From Octopus vulgaris (taxonomy: Eukaryota), in assembly GCA_951406725.2 (NCBI GenBank), contig OX597832.1, positions 22,196,001-22,260,000 of the forward strand: a stretch of DNA of 64,000 nucleotides, read 5' to 3'. The notes beneath the pieces are model-generated. The model did not search any database. It saw nothing but the letters and a program-made list of their open reading frames with translations, and was not told where the DNA came from. The translations under genes were made by a program, and so were the position numbers. Below are positions 18,502 through 61,468 of this stretch, one piece after another; position 1 is the first letter of the stretch, and the number at the start of each line of letters is the position of its first letter.

Positions 18502-18547
<46 letters not shown>

Positions 18548-18552
18548 ATTTA

Positions 18553-18684
18553 ATAGAAGGAGCTTCTACAGGACTAGAACTGTTTCATTCAAGAGAAATC
18601 TTCAGGAAGAATGTTCTTGTTAACTAGCTTCCTGAAGATTTCTCTTGAATGAAACAGTTCTAGTCCTGTAGAAGCTCCTTCTAT
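18553..18684. repeat. 57-bp perfect inverted repeat with a hammerhead in each arm, between (TA)n tracts
   Basis: 18553-18609 is the reverse complement of 18628-18684, with an 18-nt spacer. Confidence 0.9.
18626..18676 (+). ncRNA. Type I hammerhead ribozyme (U10.1.U11.1 variant)
   Basis: AGCUUC-CUGAAGA-u-UUC ucuu GAA-u-GAAA-CAG uucuaguc CUG-UA-GAAGCU. Confidence 0.75.
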
Positions 18685-18759
18685 ATAATAAATTAATTTT
18701 ACTCTGCTATGTATTGAGTACCTTATTTACTGTGGTTAACCCCGAATCAACCCGGGACC

Positions 18760-18807
<48 letters not shown>

Positions 18808-36009: not shown

Positions 36010-36213
36010 CGAATAAGGACATGTGAAAACTGTTTAATAAAAGAAGATTAAACCTTACTACAGTCGTGTCTTCAATAAATTATATATATATATGCATACA
36101 CACATATACATACACATATGCATGTGTGTATGTGTATATATATATACATATATATATACACACACGCACATGTATATACATACATTCATATCTATCCATC
36201 CATCCATCCGTCC

Positions 36214-36309
<96 letters not shown>

Positions 36310-36446
36310 GTATAATCGTCACTAAAGTGACTAAGAGTGCAAGTCAGCACCAGCATCGCTAGAAATAGGTCAAAACAACTCTTAGCCACGGGCCAAGCAC
36401 TATCTGTTGACTAACAAAGGAAGACAACTTCCCTACATCAAGCGAG

Positions 36447-36498
36447 AGCGTCAGATCATCGATGATTTCGGATAAGGTTAATCCTCATCAGTGACGCT
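36447..36498 (-). ncRNA. Canonical type I hammerhead ribozyme
   Basis: Minus strand reads AGCGUCA-CUGAUGA-GGAU uaaccuu AUCC-GAAA-UCAUCGAUGA-UC-UGACGCU. It has a perfect core, 7-bp stem I, 4-bp stem II, palindromic stem III and an AUC site. Confidence 0.88.
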
Positions 36499-36752
36499 AT
36501 ACCGTGGTCTAGGGTTAAGCTAACTCGCCTTGTCAGTTTATAAAAATTACCAAAGGAAACAATGGCTAATTCAATAAAATGCTAAAGTGAAAATTAGAAA
36601 TTAAAGTGGCTAGTCACAATTTAAAAACCACAAAAAGCACAAGTGTATATATATATATATAGCTATGGTGTATTCTGCTAAGAACGGAGTAGAGTACAGT
36701 ATAAATCTCGTCCCACTTCAAATTCCAATGACAACTACTAAATTCAGGCCAG

Positions 36753-36800
<48 letters not shown>

Positions 36801-50322: not shown

Positions 50323-51180
50323 ATGAGAGGAAGTCAAAACTTTTCCGCACTTTTGCCATAACATATCTTTATTATTGTCACACCGTCATCTGCACATGCG
50401 TACTTATAGTTGGTACTGTTGTGGTCACGTGATCGAAGTTTGAGCCAGATCGCACTTTTTTCTGGCTTTACATTGTAATCATTGCCGCTCCACTAGCAAT
50501 GTGCACCAAAGAAAAACAAAGAGCAGTGATTCGATCATGACAAAGAAAGTTGAGCAGAGAATCTGTAACAAGTTTTGCCAAAAGCTTGGCGATACCTGCT
50601 CAGATGCCTACGCAAAGTTTTCACAAGGTTTTCATCATTCTCGACACAATCAAGGAGATTTTGTGCAACTGAAACCCGAGTGTCTTTTTGGTCAGCTGAA
50701 AGCAGTTTTGGCACAAACTTGATAGACACGCGACTCATGCCTCATGGTTCACCATTACCATCTCTTGGCCTTGCTGAATATTCTCGTCGGTGGTGGATGT
50801 TGACGGGCGTCCTGTTTCCTCTTCGTGCGTCACGCTTGTCCGGTCACTTTTAAACTTTACCATCCACTCATACACCCTTCTACGCGATAATGTACTGTCC
50901 GCGTATTCTGTTAAAAGCCACCGATGAATTTCAGCACCTGACACACCTTCCGACCAGAGAAATCGGATCACTGCTCTTTGTTCTTCTTTGGAGCACATTG
51001 CTAGTGGAGCGGCCATGCTTACTCTGTAAAACCAGAAAGAAAAATGGCGCGATCAAGCTCAAACTTCAATCATGTGACCACAGTAGTACCAACTCTAAGC
51101 ACGCATGAGCAGAAGGTATTGTGACAATTATAAAGATATGCTATAGCGAAACTGCGAATAATTTTTGATTTCCACCCCCC

Positions 51181-51183
<3 letters not shown>
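50323..51183. mobile_element. Rearranged mariner relic: two left ends in inverted orientation with transposase fragments
   Basis: Arms of ~200 bp are inverted. Minus ORF EQRAVIRFL...AEIHR...VYEW..KFKSDRTSV...GRPSTS (mariner HTH) and KFVPKLLS..QK..RV. Plus fragment VEQRICNKFCQKLG. Confidence 0.82.
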
Positions 51184-51245
<62 letters not shown>

Positions 51246-51287
51246 GGGGGTGGTGGTATCAATTTTTCTCTTAAATATATTTATTTT

Positions 51288-51430
51288 TATTGAGGGCATT
51301 ACTATACATAAATGCCACACGCTGGGAGGGACTCTTAAAGTGAAAACTATCAAAATGTGTTTATTTATTTTGGTAGTTTTGACTTTAAGAGTCAATCCTA
51401 GCGTGTGGCATTTGTGTATAGTAATGCCCT

Positions 51431-51435
<5 letters not shown>
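51288..51435. repeat. 148-bp near-perfect palindrome (hairpin/MITE-like)
   Basis: tattgagggcattactatacataaatgccacacgct... / ...agcgtgtggcatttgtgtatagtaatgccctcaata. Confidence 0.9.
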
Positions 51436-51481
<46 letters not shown>

Positions 51482-51701
51482 AGAAAGGTTGCGTTCAATT
51501 GCAACATTTTTACTTTGTGGTGTGTCCAAAGTTAGATTTCTAATAAAGATTCTTCATATTAAATTTGTAGCATACTATTGCAAGTATTTTATTAAAAATA
51601 TGAAAATTTTACAAGTGTAAGGTGTGTTATGAGTATTTAAAACCATGTTAAGCATAAATTAAAATGTTATAAAAATTTTAACATCATCTCTTCTCCATCT
51701 T

Positions 51702-51891: not shown

Positions 51892-51926
51892 GTTTCCGAC
51901 GAAGAGCTCCACTCGAAACGTTAAAC
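51892..51926 (+). ncRNA. Minimal hammerhead variant in a PLE pLTR fragment (about 51820-52030)
   Basis: GUUU-CCGACGA-A-GAG cucca CUC-GAAA-CG-UU-AAAC. Shares the downstream ttcctgagcg...taatac with the copy at 57819. Confidence 0.6.
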
Positions 51927-52023: not shown

Positions 52024-52085
<62 letters not shown>

Positions 52086-52122
52086 AAAAAAGGAGATGTC
52101 GAACACGAGTGGTGATATATAA

Positions 52123-53094
52123 AAAAGGAAATGAAGAAAATGCTGACAAATAATTGAAGTAATTTAAGTAATTTAATTAGGTGAAAGTTCTTTTTACCGG
52201 TTGCGCATTTGTTATGCTTATCAAAATATAAAAGAGAGATTAGAGTCTGTCTCTTATATGTGAAAAAAAGAGGCTCCAGAGTTGTTTGGGATTTGCTTGG
52301 TTTCGCACCTAAAATTTTGATTGGTCATTATGAAGGGGTCACGTGAATGTTTGAATGGAAGTTGGTGTTGGGGTAAGAAAAAAGGCTACAGAGAAGTTAA
52401 AATTTGGCTAGTGTCCCGCCTAAAATTTCTTATTGGCCATAATAAAGAGGTCACGTGAATGTTTAGAATTTTCGAAAATAGTGTTGTTGAAAATTCTTAT
52501 TGTTCAGGCTGGTCAGTAGACGTCATGTGGATATTTTAAATAGCTTTTTAGCGCGTAGTTAGGGAGTGTATTTTCCGCTTGACTGGATAAGTAAGTTCGT
52601 TTAGAACAGGGAGAGCTGTATGTATGTATGTGTGTGCGCGCGCGGGCGCGTGTGTGTGTTTATATGTATGTTGGGGCGCGCGCGCGTGTATATATGTGTG
52701 TGTGTGTGGGTACAATTTTCAATATTTATAGTTCTGCTGGCCTTGTGCCTGTATCGGGAAGCAACGTATTTGTGTGAAGTCAATATTTACAGCCATTTCC
52801 AAAAAATAGTGTTGGATGTTTTGCACCCGTATTCAATTATGTGTATGTGTGGAACCATATATTTGTGTGTGTCATGGTGTTAATATCTGGGTAAAGGTGT
52901 GTGTAGGGTGTGTGCAGGTGTAAGTGTGTTTGTTGTGGGTTCGTGTTAGGGGCATGTGTTTAGAAGTGGTCTGTATTTATTAATAAGGTGGGATTCCATG
53001 GTTATTCGCTGGGTATGAGTGGCATTGTCTTTAAATTTGTAGAGGGGAAAGATTCTAAAATTGGGATGGAGTTGTGCGGCACAGGTATCAATAT
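52123..53094 (-). repeat. Left inverted arm (3' end of ORF + pLTR) of the PLE
   Basis: Reverse complement of 54777-55743 with only a few substitutions and microsatellite slips. Junction at ...acaggtatcaatat|caactt. Confidence 0.95.
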
Positions 53095-54925
53095 CAACTT
53101 AGCACTCTCCACCTTGGAAAATGGAACATATTACGAAAAGGCTGAACACTACAATCAACAGAAAATTATGAGAAACTTAAAAACCCTGATCAACCCCCAC
53201 AAAGAAGAACTCACTAACAAAGAATTCAACTTCATCACAAATTTCACTAGTAAAACCAGCCTCTTCTACGGTATTCCCAAAATTCATAAAAGCGAATTAA
53301 TAAGTAAGGCATGCAAGGAAGCCACAAACTCTGTAATCAATGTCCCCTCACCAAATGACCTCAAATTGAGACCTATAATAGCAGGTCCCGCTTGCGAAAC
53401 CCACCGCCTTAGCAACTTCATTGATACCCTTCTCAAGCCGTTCCTCAAACACATTAAAAGCTACATAAGGGACGATCTAGATATGCTCAACCACCTCCCC
53501 AATACACTTCTTGCTGAACAAACCCTGCTAGTAACATTCGATGTAGTCAATCTTTACTCCAACATCCCCCACAACCTAGGAATAGAAGCTATCCAATTCT
53601 GGCTGGATAATTACTCCAACGAACTCCCACACCGCATCAAAAAGGAATTTATTTTAGAAGGACTCAAATTCATCTTAGAGAATAATTTCTTCACCTTCAA
53701 CAACAAATTCTACAGACAGAAATCAGGGACGGCAATGGGAACGAAAACAGCTCCCACTTACGCCAACTTAGTCATGGGATACCTGGAAATCACTCTCTAT
53801 AATAACGTTCTTAACCAATTTGGCACCACTCTCCACACACACATAGAGAAGAACTGGAAGAGATATCTTGATGACTGCTTCATCCTTTGGCCCGAAACCG
53901 TCGAGAAGCTTAACGAATTTCACACTCTTATAAATGGGCTCAACACAAACATTATTTTCACAATGGAATACAGCCCTCAACAAATTCCCTTCCTCGACAT
54001 CCTCATTAAAATTCACAACAAAAAAATAGAAACAGACATATACTACAAGCCCACAGACTCCAAGCAATACCTCCCTTTCAATTCATGCCACCCTAGACAC
54101 GTTAAAATTAACATTCCCTACAACTTAGCCAAGAGAATTTGCACTATAGTCTCCAATAAAAACACCCGTCTCTTACGTCTACAAGAACTCAAGGGCACAT
54201 TAACAAGCAGGGATTACCCCACGTCACTAATTGACAATGGGATCCAACGCGCCCTAAAACTCAGCACGCAGGAACTTAGACGCCCTAAACCTGTTACATC
54301 GAAACCCCATACTCTACCATACATCTCTACACACAACCCCCTCAACAATGAAGCTTTTGACACCATCCTCCAGAACATTCCTGTATTACAAAAGGACCAT
54401 AGAATGAACCAAATCCTCCTAACACACGAAATCATAAAGAGCAAAAGGCAACCCAAATCATTGAAAACCATCCTAACAAATGCCAAAGTACTGCCAACCA
54501 CAACAACTAAACCCACAGTAAACAAATGCAATAGACCCAACTGTGGTATATGCATCAACCTAATAGAAGGTCCGGAATTCCTTTTTAAACAAGGACAACG
54601 TTTCACAGTAAAACACAACTTCACATGCGCATCAGAAAACCTAGTATATGTCTTAACTTGCTCGGGCTGTAATGAACACTACATAGGCCAAACAAAAAAT
54701 AGCCTCCGCCAACGCATGACTGTCCACAGATCCCAAATAAAAATACAGGAATATAGAAAAATAGCATTTAGTGCACATATTGATACCTGTGCCGCACAAC
54801 TCCATCCCAATTTTAGAATCTTTCCCCTCTACAAATTTAAAGACAATGCCACTCATACCCAGCGAATAACCATGGAATCCCACCTTATTAATAAATACAG
54901 ACCACTTCTAAACACATGCCCCTAA
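52988..54925 (+). CDS. PLE polyprotein (reverse transcriptase + GIY-YIG endonuclease), N-terminally truncated; the first ~36 codons are antisense sequence from the inverted arm
   Basis: RT motifs FYGIPKIHK, LRPII, FDVVNLYSNIP, QKSGTAMG, RYLDDCF, PFLDI and YYKPT. Cys linker CNRPNCGIC. GIY-YIG motif LVYVLTC...YIGQT...RMTVHR, ending in PLLN. No stops from 53096 to 54925. Confidence 0.93.
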   Translation: MGFHGYSLGMSGIVFKFVEGKDSKIGMELCGTGININLALSTLENGTYYEKAEHYNQQKIMRNLKTLINPHKEELTNKEFNFITNFTSKTSLFYGIPKIHKSELISKACKEATNSVINVPSPNDLKLRPIIAGPACETHRLSNFIDTLLKPFLKHIKSYIRDDLDMLNHLPNTLLAEQTLLVTFDVVNLYSNIPHNLGIEAIQFWLDNYSNELPHRIKKEFILEGLKFILENNFFTFNNKFYRQKSGTAMGTKTAPTYANLVMGYLEITLYNNVLNQFGTTLHTHIEKNWKRYLDDCFILWPETVEKLNEFHTLINGLNTNIIFTMEYSPQQIPFLDILIKIHNKKIETDIYYKPTDSKQYLPFNSCHPRHVKINIPYNLAKRICTIVSNKNTRLLRLQELKGTLTSRDYPTSLIDNGIQRALKLSTQELRRPKPVTSKPHTLPYISTHNPLNNEAFDTILQNIPVLQKDHRMNQILLTHEIIKSKRQPKSLKTILTNAKVLPTTTTKPTVNKCNRPNCGICINLIEGPEFLFKQGQRFTVKHNFTCASENLVYVLTCSGCNEHYIGQTKNSLRQRMTVHRSQIKIQEYRKIAFSAHIDTCAAQLHPNFRIFPLYKFKDNATHTQRITMESHLINKYRPLLNTCP

Positions 54926-55630
54926 CACGAACCCACAACAAACACACTTACACCTGCACACACCCTACACACACCTTTACCCAGATATTAACACCATGAC
55001 ACACACAAATATATGGTTCCACACATACACATAATTGAATACGGGTGCAAAACATCCAACACTATTTTTTGGAAATGGCTGTAAATATTGACTTCACACA
55101 AATACGTTGCTTCCCGATACAGGCACAAGGCCAGCAGAACTATAAATATTGAAAATTGTACCCACACACACACACATATATACACGCGCGCGCGCCCCAA
55201 CATACATATAAACACACACACGCGCGCGCGCACACACATACATACATACAGCTCTCCCTGTTCTAAACGAACTTACTTATCCAGTCAAGCGGAAAATACA
55301 CTCCCTAACTATGCGCTAAAAAGCTATTTAAAATATCCACATGACGTCTACTGACCAGCCTGAACAATAAGAATTTTCAACAACACTATTTTCGAAAATT
55401 CTAAACATTCACGTGACCTCTTTATTATGGCCAATAAGAAATTTTAGGCGGGACACTAGCCAAATTTTAACTTCTCTGGAGCCTTTTTTCTTACCCCAAC
55501 ACCAACTTCCATTCAAACATTCACGTGACCCCTTCATAATGACCAATCAAAATTTTAGGTGCGAAACCAAGCAAATCCCAAACAACTCTGGAGCCTCTTT
55601 TTTCACATATAAGAGACAGACTCTAATCTC

Positions 55631-55677
55631 TCTTTTATATTTTGATAAGCATAACAAATGCGCAACCGGTAAAAAGA
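55631..55677 (+). ncRNA. Variant hammerhead-like motif in the PLE pLTR (mirror copy at 52189-52235, minus)
   Basis: UUGAUAA-GCAU aacaa AUGC-GCAA-CCGG-UA, with UCUUUU/AAAAGA flanks. This is hammerhead topology with a substituted core and a palindromic mini stem III. Confidence 0.55.
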
Positions 55678-55738
55678 ACTTTCACCTAATTAAATTACTT
55701 AAATTACTTCAATTATTTGTCAGCATTTTCTTCATTTC

Positions 55739-55784
<46 letters not shown>

Positions 55785-55847
55785 TATATAAACGCTGTAA
55801 CAGTTAAATTCACTTCATAACTTAAAATTGAATAGAAGATCTGAAAT

Positions 55848-55893
55848 CCACCTGATGAATGTCCTTAGAAGAGACACGAAACAATTGTAGTGG
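55848..55893 (+). ncRNA. Minimal type I hammerhead ribozyme in a separate PLE pLTR fragment (55790-55995) bounded by (TA)n
   Basis: CCAC-CUGAUGA-a-UGUC cuuagaaga GACA-c-GAAA-CAAUUG-UA-GUGG: 4-bp stem I, palindromic stem III, GUA cleavage triplet. Confidence 0.8.
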
Positions 55894-60196: not shown

Positions 60197-61152
60197 ATCA
60201 ATAGGGATCGTTATAACAGAAATTTCAATATGAAGTGTAAAGGGGAGGACAGGTGAGGTTTACCCGTGGAAAGAAAAGCCTACGGAAAAGACCACGGTAA
60301 CCTCGGTCAATGAAGTCACATTTTATATTTCTTTTTTTTTTTTTTTTTTTTTTGCAAATAAGCAACTCTCTGTTTTCGATTTCTGGGTTCATAGGACTAT
60401 GCTCAAGGTGGCTTCGTCATTCATACGTGCCATTCTTGCTACATTCACCCATCTTTTTTTAAAACATTCGCTAGACAAAACTTGCCTCTCTACTCTCACT
60501 TTCCTTTTCAAGTGGTACTTGAAGAAGTTGATGAGAGATTGACCAGAGAGGAAAGTGTTTGTCTCCAATCCTTTCAGACGCGTCCACCAGATACATTCTT
60601 TCGCCATAGCCACAAGGATGATGAAAATAGCTCTTCCTTCCCGTTTGAAGGAAGGAGGCGTCACAATATTGACGATAGACTCAGCTGATAAACCGACTCG
60701 TCCCACACGTGACAGCAGTTGTTCGACATAAGCCCACAGGTCGGAAATTGTTGGACACTGAACGAGTGCGTGCAGAACGGTTTCGTCGCTCTGACCGCAT
60801 CTCGGGCAGGTCGGCCCCGTGTTTCTCGAGCCGTGTCTGTAGAGCTTATCCCGAACGGGTAGCGCTTCTCGGTAGCACTGCCAGGCCAGGGATCTCTGGA
60901 AGTTGTCCATGGGCCCTGGCCCGAAAGTCGTCCTGAACAGGCGGGTCAGGTACTCCTCGTCGACGTCCAGGTTCGCCCCGAGCTCGTCGTCGTACCTCCC
61001 CTCCACTAAACCCCTATAGAATGCTTTGGTTGTGTTGAAGTCACTTAAGGTCGACCCAGGACGGCAGAGTTGCTTAAGAGCAACGCGACACTCGCGGTGC
61101 CATTCGCCCTTCCTCGGCCTCTTTTTGATCCACGACTGCAGTTCGGTCATGG

Positions 61153-61153
<1 letters not shown>
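59984..61153 (-). mobile_element. Tx1/L1-clade LINE 3' fragment (ORF2 C-terminus + 3' UTR) inserted in (GATA)n
   Basis: ORF 60389-61150 contains W...EALPVRDKL...CPRC...ETVLHALVQC (zf-RVT CCHC) and IWWTR. The 3' end aataaagaaa is followed by (CTAT)n. Confidence 0.88.
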
Positions 61154-61198
<45 letters not shown>

Positions 61199-61212
61199 GT
61201 AGATAGATAGAT

Positions 61213-61468
61213 AACTTTCTTTATTGGCCACACAGAGCTGGACACAGAGGGGACAATTACAAATGTAGAGCTTTTCTTTTCGGAGATGGAAAAGGAAAGG
61301 GAAGAAAAAAAAAGGGAAACAAATGTAAAATTTCGATCAAAAGGGATCGGAAGAAAAAAAAGCGATCAAAAGGGATCGTGTATTACAGAAAGAAAAAATT
61401 ATTTTTTTTCAAAGTAACAAACAAGATTAGGTTCGTCCGTGGAAAGAAAAGCCTACAGAAAAGACCAC

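What the first reader, a model, noticed from the sequence alone, without database searches (positions are those of the whole stretch)
36316..36620. Solitary perfect type I hammerhead in a ~300-bp unique island: retrozyme-like element?
Seen: a fully canonical core with 7-bp stem I and a 10-nt palindromic stem III (UCAUCGAUGA) on the minus strand. It lies in a ~300-bp segment between (CTAT)n and (TA)n with no ORF and no second copy in this window. Established: metazoan non-LTR retrozymes are short units with type I hammerheads that yield circular RNAs, and PLE pLTRs also carry such motifs. The intact core suggests recent insertion or selection. It would cut any minus-strand transcript crossing this site.
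Basis: partly seen in the sequence, partly recalled or inferred. Interest (0 to 1): 0.8.

Follow-up and report, generated by a model that had tools for sequence, protein, structure and literature searches.

The report
Solo hammerhead retrozyme copy, likely octopus
This is one 333-base copy of a scattered repeat family whose end joins its own start in other copies and which carries a complete hammerhead motif (a predicted, untested self-cutting RNA), so it is likely a retrozyme, a known kind of small parasitic element, here probably in an octopus.

Summary
The motif is real: a canonical type I hammerhead on the minus strand (36498-36447), predicted cut 3' of 36454, matched in 0 of 300 shuffled windows. 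The island is unique only within this window. Contigs from three organism labels show many related copies, mostly under 95% alike, and joints where the unit's end runs into its own start (period 334 bp). The window holds exactly one unit (36310-36642, 39% GC, no ORF) between two microsatellites. This fits a solo monomer of a non-LTR retrozyme family, likely moved by Penelope-like (PLE) proteins. It does not look recent: it differs from the family majority at 22 or more sites, the same locus is present in another organism label, and this copy is predicted to misfold. No contig showed two ribozymes in tandem; cleavage, transcription and circles are untested; a PLE end-repeat is not excluded. Four further hammerhead-like motifs and a truncated PLE lie in the window. 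The scan has noted retrozymes on other DNA (a sea squirt); I found no cephalopod report in the searches named. New member of a known kind.

The parts
36310..36642 (-). One complete 333-bp unit of the repeat family (solo monomer), 39% GC, non-coding
   Evidence: joint 36603->36310 with 40 letters between that resemble the window's 36604-36642 (by eye); loose ends before 36310/36317/36318 are the unit's own tail. GC; ORFs.
36492..36498 (-). Hammerhead stem I, 5' strand (AGCGUCA)
   Evidence: pair probabilities 0.72-1.0
36485..36491 (-). Catalytic core C3-A9 (CUGAUGA)
36470..36484 (-). Stem II (GGAU/AUCC, 4 bp, no extra base after A9) with 7-nt loop UAACCUU; position 36477 differs from the family majority and favours a decoy helix with the core
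   Evidence: (table 3)
36455..36469 (-). GAAA core plus helix III; 36466-36455 is a perfect 12-nt palindrome
   Evidence: no stable hairpin on its own (MFE 0), two-strand duplex -15.5 kcal/mol, helix III pair probabilities 0.30-0.43 in the monomer
36454..36454 (-). C17; predicted cleavage 3' of this base (AUC triplet)
   Evidence: cleavage itself not tested
36447..36453 (-). Hammerhead stem I, 3' strand (UGACGCU)
36431..36514 (-). Imperfect rod continuing stem I; four Watson-Crick pairs that the family's majority letters would form in one register are mismatches in this copy
   Evidence: pair-by-pair; majority letters are not phased; arms 36431-36453/36492-36514, 74% complementary
36318..36367 (-). 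Most heavily covered part of the unit (summed contig depth roughly 4 to 15 times that over the central part), with a small hairpin at 36318-36331; possible RT-recognition region (inference)
   Evidence: table 2; hairpin seen by eye
36643..36649 (.). GT then GTATA: repeats the unit's first five bases on the + strand (36310-36314); terminal redundancy or micro-homology with the TA target
   Evidence: Sequence; junction letters
36189..36309 (.). (TATC)n microsatellite, left flank
36646..36661 (.). (TA)8 microsatellite, right flank

Best explanation
The island is one whole unit of a multi-copy, non-coding 333-334-bp repeat that carries one canonical type I hammerhead motif, and it is likely a solo, aged monomer of a non-LTR retrozyme family. 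Likely mechanism: source copies with two or more units are transcribed on the minus-strand sense; each hammerhead cuts 3' of C17, probably helped by pairing of two 12-nt palindromes into a double hammerhead; the released ~334-nt monomer is circularised by a host RNA ligase; the reverse transcriptase and GIY-YIG endonuclease of a Penelope-like element copy the circle or multimer into TA-rich microsatellites. SHOWN here: the motif, the multi-copy family, the end-to-start junction, unit length, microsatellite flanks, strand-switch joints in relatives, a PLE in the same window. INFERRED from published families: cleavage, dimer action, circularisation, PLE mobilisation. Also inferred: because this copy's ends lie 188 nt before and 144 nt after the cut site rather than at it, its template was a circle or multimer, not a cleaved linear monomer. 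With one ribozyme and a predicted decoy fold, this copy by itself would not release a circle and is likely a dead end.
For: (80% threshold, stretch 36306-36756): 420, 299 and 245 contigs laid in DNA runs of organisms A, B and C, of which 374, 284 and 216 are under 95% alike (these totals include contigs of an unrelated repeat at 36672-36724; at single sites inside the unit, 86/60/56 contigs carry another letter at 36357 and 20/19/16 at 36477). Joint 36603->36310 in 2, 2 and 3 contigs, 294+40 = 334 bp period; joint 36546->36310 in 2, 1, 1. Loose ends before 36310/36317/36318 are the unit's own tail in 19+15+16 (X2), 12+20+13 (X4), 11+10 (X7) contigs. 3 of the 15 joints shown switch strand, as inverted truncated PLE insertions do (PMC8557442 preprint version, passages). 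Among the 40 best-supported of 186 variant rows none falls in the core, stem II or helix III. Size, GC and canonical architecture match animal retrozymes (170-400 nt, GC under 45-50%; PMC7229834) and differ from metazoan PLE minimal hammerheads (PMC4209133), of which the window's motif at 55852 looks like an example. Solo monomers are described (10.64898/2026.07.22.740005). Circular fold of the sense strand z -2.5, 2 of 150 shuffles as stable; antisense z -1.5, 12 of 150. No similarity between the unit and the window's PLE or other motifs.
Against: No listed contig holds two ribozymes or two whole units, so junction contigs fit tandem arrays and circularly permuted monomers alike; only 15 of 35 joints, 24 of 369 loose-end rows, 40 of 186 variant rows and 32 of 1075 pieces were shown. 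Stem I position 36496 varies: the two other letters together hold 58% (X2), 54% (X4) and 72% (X7) of depth, and one of them breaks the pair unless its partner changed too (not seen). Junction contigs have low depth (10-23 each), so no large homogeneous array was seen. No target-site duplication longer than 4-5 bp can be read. The window letters form scattered pairs in another register of the stem I extension, so 'decay' there may be subfamily difference. Host taxon is not established by a call.
Confidence: 0.72

Rival explanations
1. The unit is the end-repeat (pLTR) of an autonomous Penelope-like element, or of one that lost its ORF, and the end-to-start junctions come from locally duplicated pLTRs; the window copy is a truncated PLE insertion and no self-propagating small circle exists.
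For: PLE end-repeats carry type I hammerheads, some with palindromic helix III (PMC4209133). Strand-switch joints and microsatellite targets are PLE traits. 24 of 57 Xenopus retrozyme families matched known TEs, almost all PLE ends. Coverage is highest at the sense 3' end, as 5' truncation would give. PLEs are present in the window.
Against: All listed DNA-run loose ends at 36310, 36317 and 36318 are the unit's own tail, not shared foreign sequence. The motif lacks the extra base after A9, the long stem II and the short stem I of metazoan PLE hammerheads. No similarity to the window's PLE.
Confidence: 0.18
2. A satellite-like repeat that spreads by DNA-level recombination; the hammerhead is an inherited relic with no present role.
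For: Copies are mostly 80-95% alike and some junction copies are shared by three organism labels, so much of the family is old. Only 1 of 9 predicted frog retrozyme dimers cleaved in vitro.
Against: Dispersed insertion between microsatellites, strand-switch joints, and well-supported variants that avoid the core, stem II and helix III in the rows shown.
Confidence: 0.06
3. This particular copy was co-opted by the host as a cis-acting ribozyme that cuts a minus-strand transcript.
For: 0 of the 22 sites where the copy differs from the X2 majority fall in the 45 core and stem positions (3.4 expected, P 0.02). The locus is shared with organism C with 0 differences over 36322-36468.
Against: The copy was picked for an intact core, so that P value is biased, and the site list comes from 40 of 186 rows. 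The copy is predicted to misfold. The flank is as well kept as the unit in organism C (3 differences in 233 bases). None of 117 non-repeat reading frames matched a host Pfam family; the one match was a transposase HTH.
Confidence: 0.04

Closest known systems
Metazoan non-LTR retrozymes (Cervera & de la Pena 2020, PMC7229834: coral 220-245 nt, mussel 350-390 nt, axolotl 330/350 nt); read: abstract, introduction, results parts 1-2 of 3, discussion; supplement not readable
   Same: Non-coding unit of 333-334 bp, 39% GC, one canonical type I hammerhead, multi-copy, end-to-start junction, self-paired predicted circle, PLEs in the same genome. Like the mussel ribozymes, loop 2 shows no obvious canonical tertiary letters (by eye, consensus recalled).
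   Different: Helix III is longer (4 bp counting A15.1-U16.1; 12-nt perfect palindrome) than the 1-2 bp described as usual; arrays of two or more whole units, cleavage, expression and circles are not shown here; this copy is a solo monomer.
Solo (monomer) retrozyme derivatives and PLE origin of retrozymes (Li, Clavereau & Pollet 2026, bioRxiv 10.64898/2026.07.22.740005); read: parts 1-3 of 5 (abstract to end of discussion); supplements closed
   Same: A dispersed full-length monomer of a hammerhead-bearing unit, regarded there as offspring that cannot move again.
   Different: Their 35 genomes are 31 vertebrates, 3 insects and 1 coral; no mollusc. Their 'active' criterion (two consecutive units with whole ribozymes) is not shown for this family.
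Hammerheads in pLTRs of Penelope-like elements (Cervera & de la Pena 2014, PMC4209133); read: parts 1-2 of 4
   Same: Type I topology, palindromic helix III suited to dimer action, dispersed single motifs.
   Different: No extra base between A9 and stem II, stem II 4 bp rather than 6-8, stem I 7 bp rather than 4-5, full helix III; no ORF link seen.

Membership tests
Type I hammerhead ribozyme | Conserved core (C3-A9, G12-A14, A15.1-U16.1, H17) with three helices, helix I open | tested here: met
Type I hammerhead ribozyme | Self-cleavage at H17 | not testable with these tools
   Only contigs were served; needs an in vitro assay or raw RNA reads
Type I hammerhead ribozyme | Active fold accessible | tested here: inconclusive
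   Active fold 4.9 kcal/mol above the predicted minimum; stem II probability 0.08 in this copy, 0.86 with the family's majority loop letter; the model ignores Mg2+ and tertiary contacts
Non-LTR retrozyme | Unit of about 150-450 bp, GC under 50%, no protein coding | tested here: met
   333 bp, 39% GC; no internal ATG ORF of 20 aa or more
Non-LTR retrozyme | One canonical type I hammerhead per unit | tested here: met
   One motif in this unit; relatives cover the motif with no well-supported core variant among 40 of 186 rows shown
Non-LTR retrozyme | Multi-copy in the genome | tested here: met
   dozens of distinct contigs per site in three organism labels
Non-LTR retrozyme | Head-to-tail junction of the unit | tested here: met
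   tables 5, 5c, 7
Non-LTR retrozyme | Two or more consecutive units each with a whole ribozyme | tested here: inconclusive
   No listed contig spans two ribozymes (32 of 1075 pieces shown); no genome held
Non-LTR retrozyme | Target-site duplication longer than 4 bp, when present | tested here: inconclusive
   Only GTATA at both ends, which is also the unit's own junction; flanks are microsatellites
Non-LTR retrozyme | Expressed as linear and circular monomer RNA | not testable with these tools
   Contigs cannot show strand, ends or circles
PLE pLTR hammerhead | Minimal architecture: extra base after A9, stem II 6-8 bp, stem I 4-5 bp, little or no helix III | tested here: not met
   against PMC4209133
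PLE pLTR hammerhead | Adjacent to an RT + GIY-YIG ORF in some copies | tested here: inconclusive
   Not in this window (nearest PLE 16 kb away, unrelated); listed loose ends show none, but 345 of 369 rows were not shown
PLE-mobilised insertion | Microsatellite targets and inverted truncated copies | tested here: met
   Flanks; 3 strand-switch joints of 15 shown; traits

The most novel reading that the evidence does not exclude
The family is still active in at least one lineage and yields abundant ~334-nt self-cleaving circular RNAs in an octopus, with cleavage switched on by pairing of the 12-nt helix III palindrome between two units. Single contigs of depth 88-290 in run X4 (near-identical copies, with a reshaped stem II loop, nearly absent from X2 and X7) would be its young subfamily. 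That would be the first cephalopod retrozyme, a direct test bed for mobilisation in trans by resident Penelope elements, and a self-paired RNA exposed to the heavy A-to-I editing of coleoids.
Probability: 0.2. Interest if true: 0.5.

Novelty: new member of a known kind. Interest (0 to 1): 0.3.

Why it matters
It extends hammerhead retrozymes to what is probably a cephalopod genome, a group for which my searches found no report and whose 2026 repeat annotation does not mention ribozymes in its main text. The copy is a neat example of an exactly one-unit, circularly permuted insertion whose ends are away from the cut site, which is what copying from a circle or multimer predicts. It is not a new kind of system, and this copy itself is probably inert.

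Tried and rejected
Whole-genome search: no genome is held for this window. Rfam: 0 hits at gathering score; microRNA matches fall on the flanking TA/CA repeats. Pattern scan of metagenome contigs for the core plus palindrome: 0 matches. Sequencing runs: 7 holders of 24 rows, 5 studies, 3 organism labels; no RNA holder listed, which says nothing on expression. One run guessed to be RNA (X9) gave 14 contigs, 0 of them 95% alike or better; 4 listed pieces lie on the unit at depth 5.5-9.5 and may be DNA, so it is not counted as expression. Link to the window's own PLE or to the other motifs: no alignment above shuffled scores in 10 of 10 comparisons. A branch-point/3' splice-site-like stretch at 36600-36581 (minus, seen by eye) was dropped because the family majority has other letters at 36597 and 36582. 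Host gene: I scanned 117 of 121 filtered reading frames of 45 aa or more (the 4 left out lie in the PLE ORF); the only match was a Mos1-type HTH; shorter exons would be missed. A Lactamase_B match below cut-off at 51144-51494 lies on a CA repeat and was dismissed. Bacterial promoter/terminator scan and tRNA scan (0 genes) added nothing. Summed depth over single-copy depth suggests tens to hundreds of copies, but the tool warns that this is no copy number. Literature: 'hammerhead ribozyme'+'octopus' (5 papers, 4 listed), 'hammerhead'+'cephalopod'+'ribozyme' (7, 4 listed), 'retrozyme' (55, 40 listed), 'hammerhead'+'mollus'+'tandem repeat'+'circular RNA' (5) showed no cephalopod retrozyme in their listings; one search was too loose to be informative. 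The supplement of PMC7229834 and those of the 2026 preprint could not be read and could hold cephalopod examples.

Full report
Observation. The minus strand at 36498-36447 reads stem I (7 bp) - CUGAUGA - stem II (4 bp, 7-nt loop) - GAAA - UCAUCGAUGA - UC - stem I, a complete type I hammerhead with AUC as cleavage triplet and C17 at 36454. In 300 shuffles of the window none gave a motif with stem I>=5, II>=4, III>=3, and 23 gave a loose one. Rfam has no hit at gathering score and a sub-threshold RAGATH-1-hammerhead match. The segment lies between (TATC)n and (TA)8, has no internal ATG ORF of 20 aa or more and no second copy in the window.

The island is a repeat unit. No genome is held, so I used sequencing runs. 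Seven of 24 listed runs hold the stretch, from 5 studies and 3 organism labels. I laid 3 of these 7 and one run guessed to be RNA on 36306-36756 at 80% likeness (all are assembled contigs). 420, 299 and 245 contigs were laid in the DNA runs, 374, 284 and 216 of them under 95% alike; these totals include an unrelated repeat at 36672-36724, but single sites inside the unit are covered by dozens of distinct contigs (86/60/56 with another letter at 36357). The decisive rows are the joints from 36603 back to 36310 (2, 2 and 3 contigs) with 40 letters between that resemble the window's 36604-36642 by eye, giving a period of 334 bp, and the loose ends before 36310, 36317 and 36318, which are the unit's own tail in 50 (X2), 45 (X4) and 21 (X7) contigs. 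The window copy therefore runs exactly one unit, 36310-36642, followed by GT and GTATA, the latter repeating the unit's first five bases. Three of the 15 joints shown switch strand. The tables were cut: 15 of 35 joints, 24 of 369 loose ends, 40 of 186 variants, 32 of 1075 pieces. No listed piece holds two ribozymes, so arrays and circularly permuted monomers cannot be told apart.

Age and state of this copy. In the 40 rows shown, the copy differs from the X2 majority at 22 sites in about 288 bases (7.6%, a minimum). The insertion is thus not very recent. None of the 22 sites lies in the 45 core and stem positions (3.4 expected, P 0.02), but the copy was noticed for its intact core, and stem I position 36496 is variable in the family (other letters 54-72% of depth), so this is no proof of selection. 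Folding suggests wear: a decoy helix between core and loop II has probability 0.91 and stem II 0.08; with the majority letter at 36477 these become 0.12 and 0.86. Four Watson-Crick pairs that majority letters would form beyond stem I are mismatches here (letters not phased), though the window letters give scattered pairs in another register. The palindrome of helix III forms no stable hairpin alone but a -15.5 kcal/mol duplex with a second copy, which fits double-hammerhead action in tandem transcripts (mechanism from PMC4209133).

Mechanism. Shown: motif, family, junction, unit size, flanks, inverted joints, PLE presence. Inferred from animal retrozymes (PMC7229834): transcription of multimers, cleavage to monomers, ligation by a host ligase, reverse transcription and insertion by an autonomous element, with PLEs the favoured helper (also 10.64898/2026.07.22.740005). 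The copy's ends are 188 nt upstream and 144 nt downstream of the cut site, so a cleaved linear monomer cannot have been its template; a circle or a multimer can (inference). Microsatellite targets and inverted truncated copies are PLE traits (passages of 10.1101/2021.04.23.441226). A 5'-truncated PLE with RT and GIY-YIG domains lies 16 kb away, but its sequence and its hammerhead-like motif are unrelated to the unit, so it shows that helpers exist in this genome, not which one acts.

Comparison. It works like a non-LTR retrozyme and meets the features I could test (size, GC, no ORF, canonical ribozyme, multi-copy, head-to-tail junction); arrays of whole units and target duplication are inconclusive; cleavage and circles are untestable here. 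It fails the architecture of metazoan PLE minimal hammerheads. The main rival, a PLE end-repeat, stays open (0.18) because most loose ends were not shown and because retrozymes and pLTRs are related.

Host and novelty. The taxon is not given by any search. My searches listed no cephalopod retrozyme, and the 2026 Octopus vulgaris repeat paper has 0 occurrences of hammerhead, ribozyme or retrozyme in its main text (PMC13282606, passages); unread supplements of PMC7229834 and of the 2026 preprint may bear on this. PMC5680766 was seen as passages only (no mollusc terms). Earlier notes of this scan describe a 341-nt sea-squirt retrozyme and several PLE end-pieces; none resembled this sequence.

Verdict. 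Real motif, right family guess, wrong on uniqueness and recency. New member of a known kind; interest 0.3.

Noticed in passing
window 52044-55790 (+): Penelope-like element: open frame 52964-54925 with RT and GIY-YIG domains, 5'-truncated at about 53095, preceded by an inverted 96% copy (52044-53094) of its 3' part (54777-55790); no stop in the remaining frame, so probably young.
   Followed up: partly
   Followed up: partly
window 18545-18765: Two hammerhead-like motifs (CUGAAGA core) on opposite strands in an inverted duplication of about 60 bp between (TA)n runs; a third family.
   Followed up: partly
window 51892-51926 (+): Minimal hammerhead-like motif with variant core CCGACGA and a 2-nt palindromic helix III.
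   Followed up: no
window 36672-36724: A separate, higher-copy repeat right of the unit (summed depth up to 5660 in X2, 21000 in X4; also the best covered part in the run guessed to be RNA).
   Followed up: no
run X4, laid on 36370-36599: Single contigs of depth 88-290 with small insertions and deletions, one reshaping stem II/loop II, nearly absent from X2 and X7: possibly a younger, more uniform subfamily in organism B (table 4).
   Followed up: no
window 50738-51052 (-) and 60392-61336 (-): Remnants of a mariner-type transposase HTH (below Pfam cut-off) and of a LINE zinc-binding domain.
   Followed up: no
window 51290-51435: A ~145-bp imperfect hairpin (MITE-like) ending in a (TA)n run, seen by eye.
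   Followed up: no
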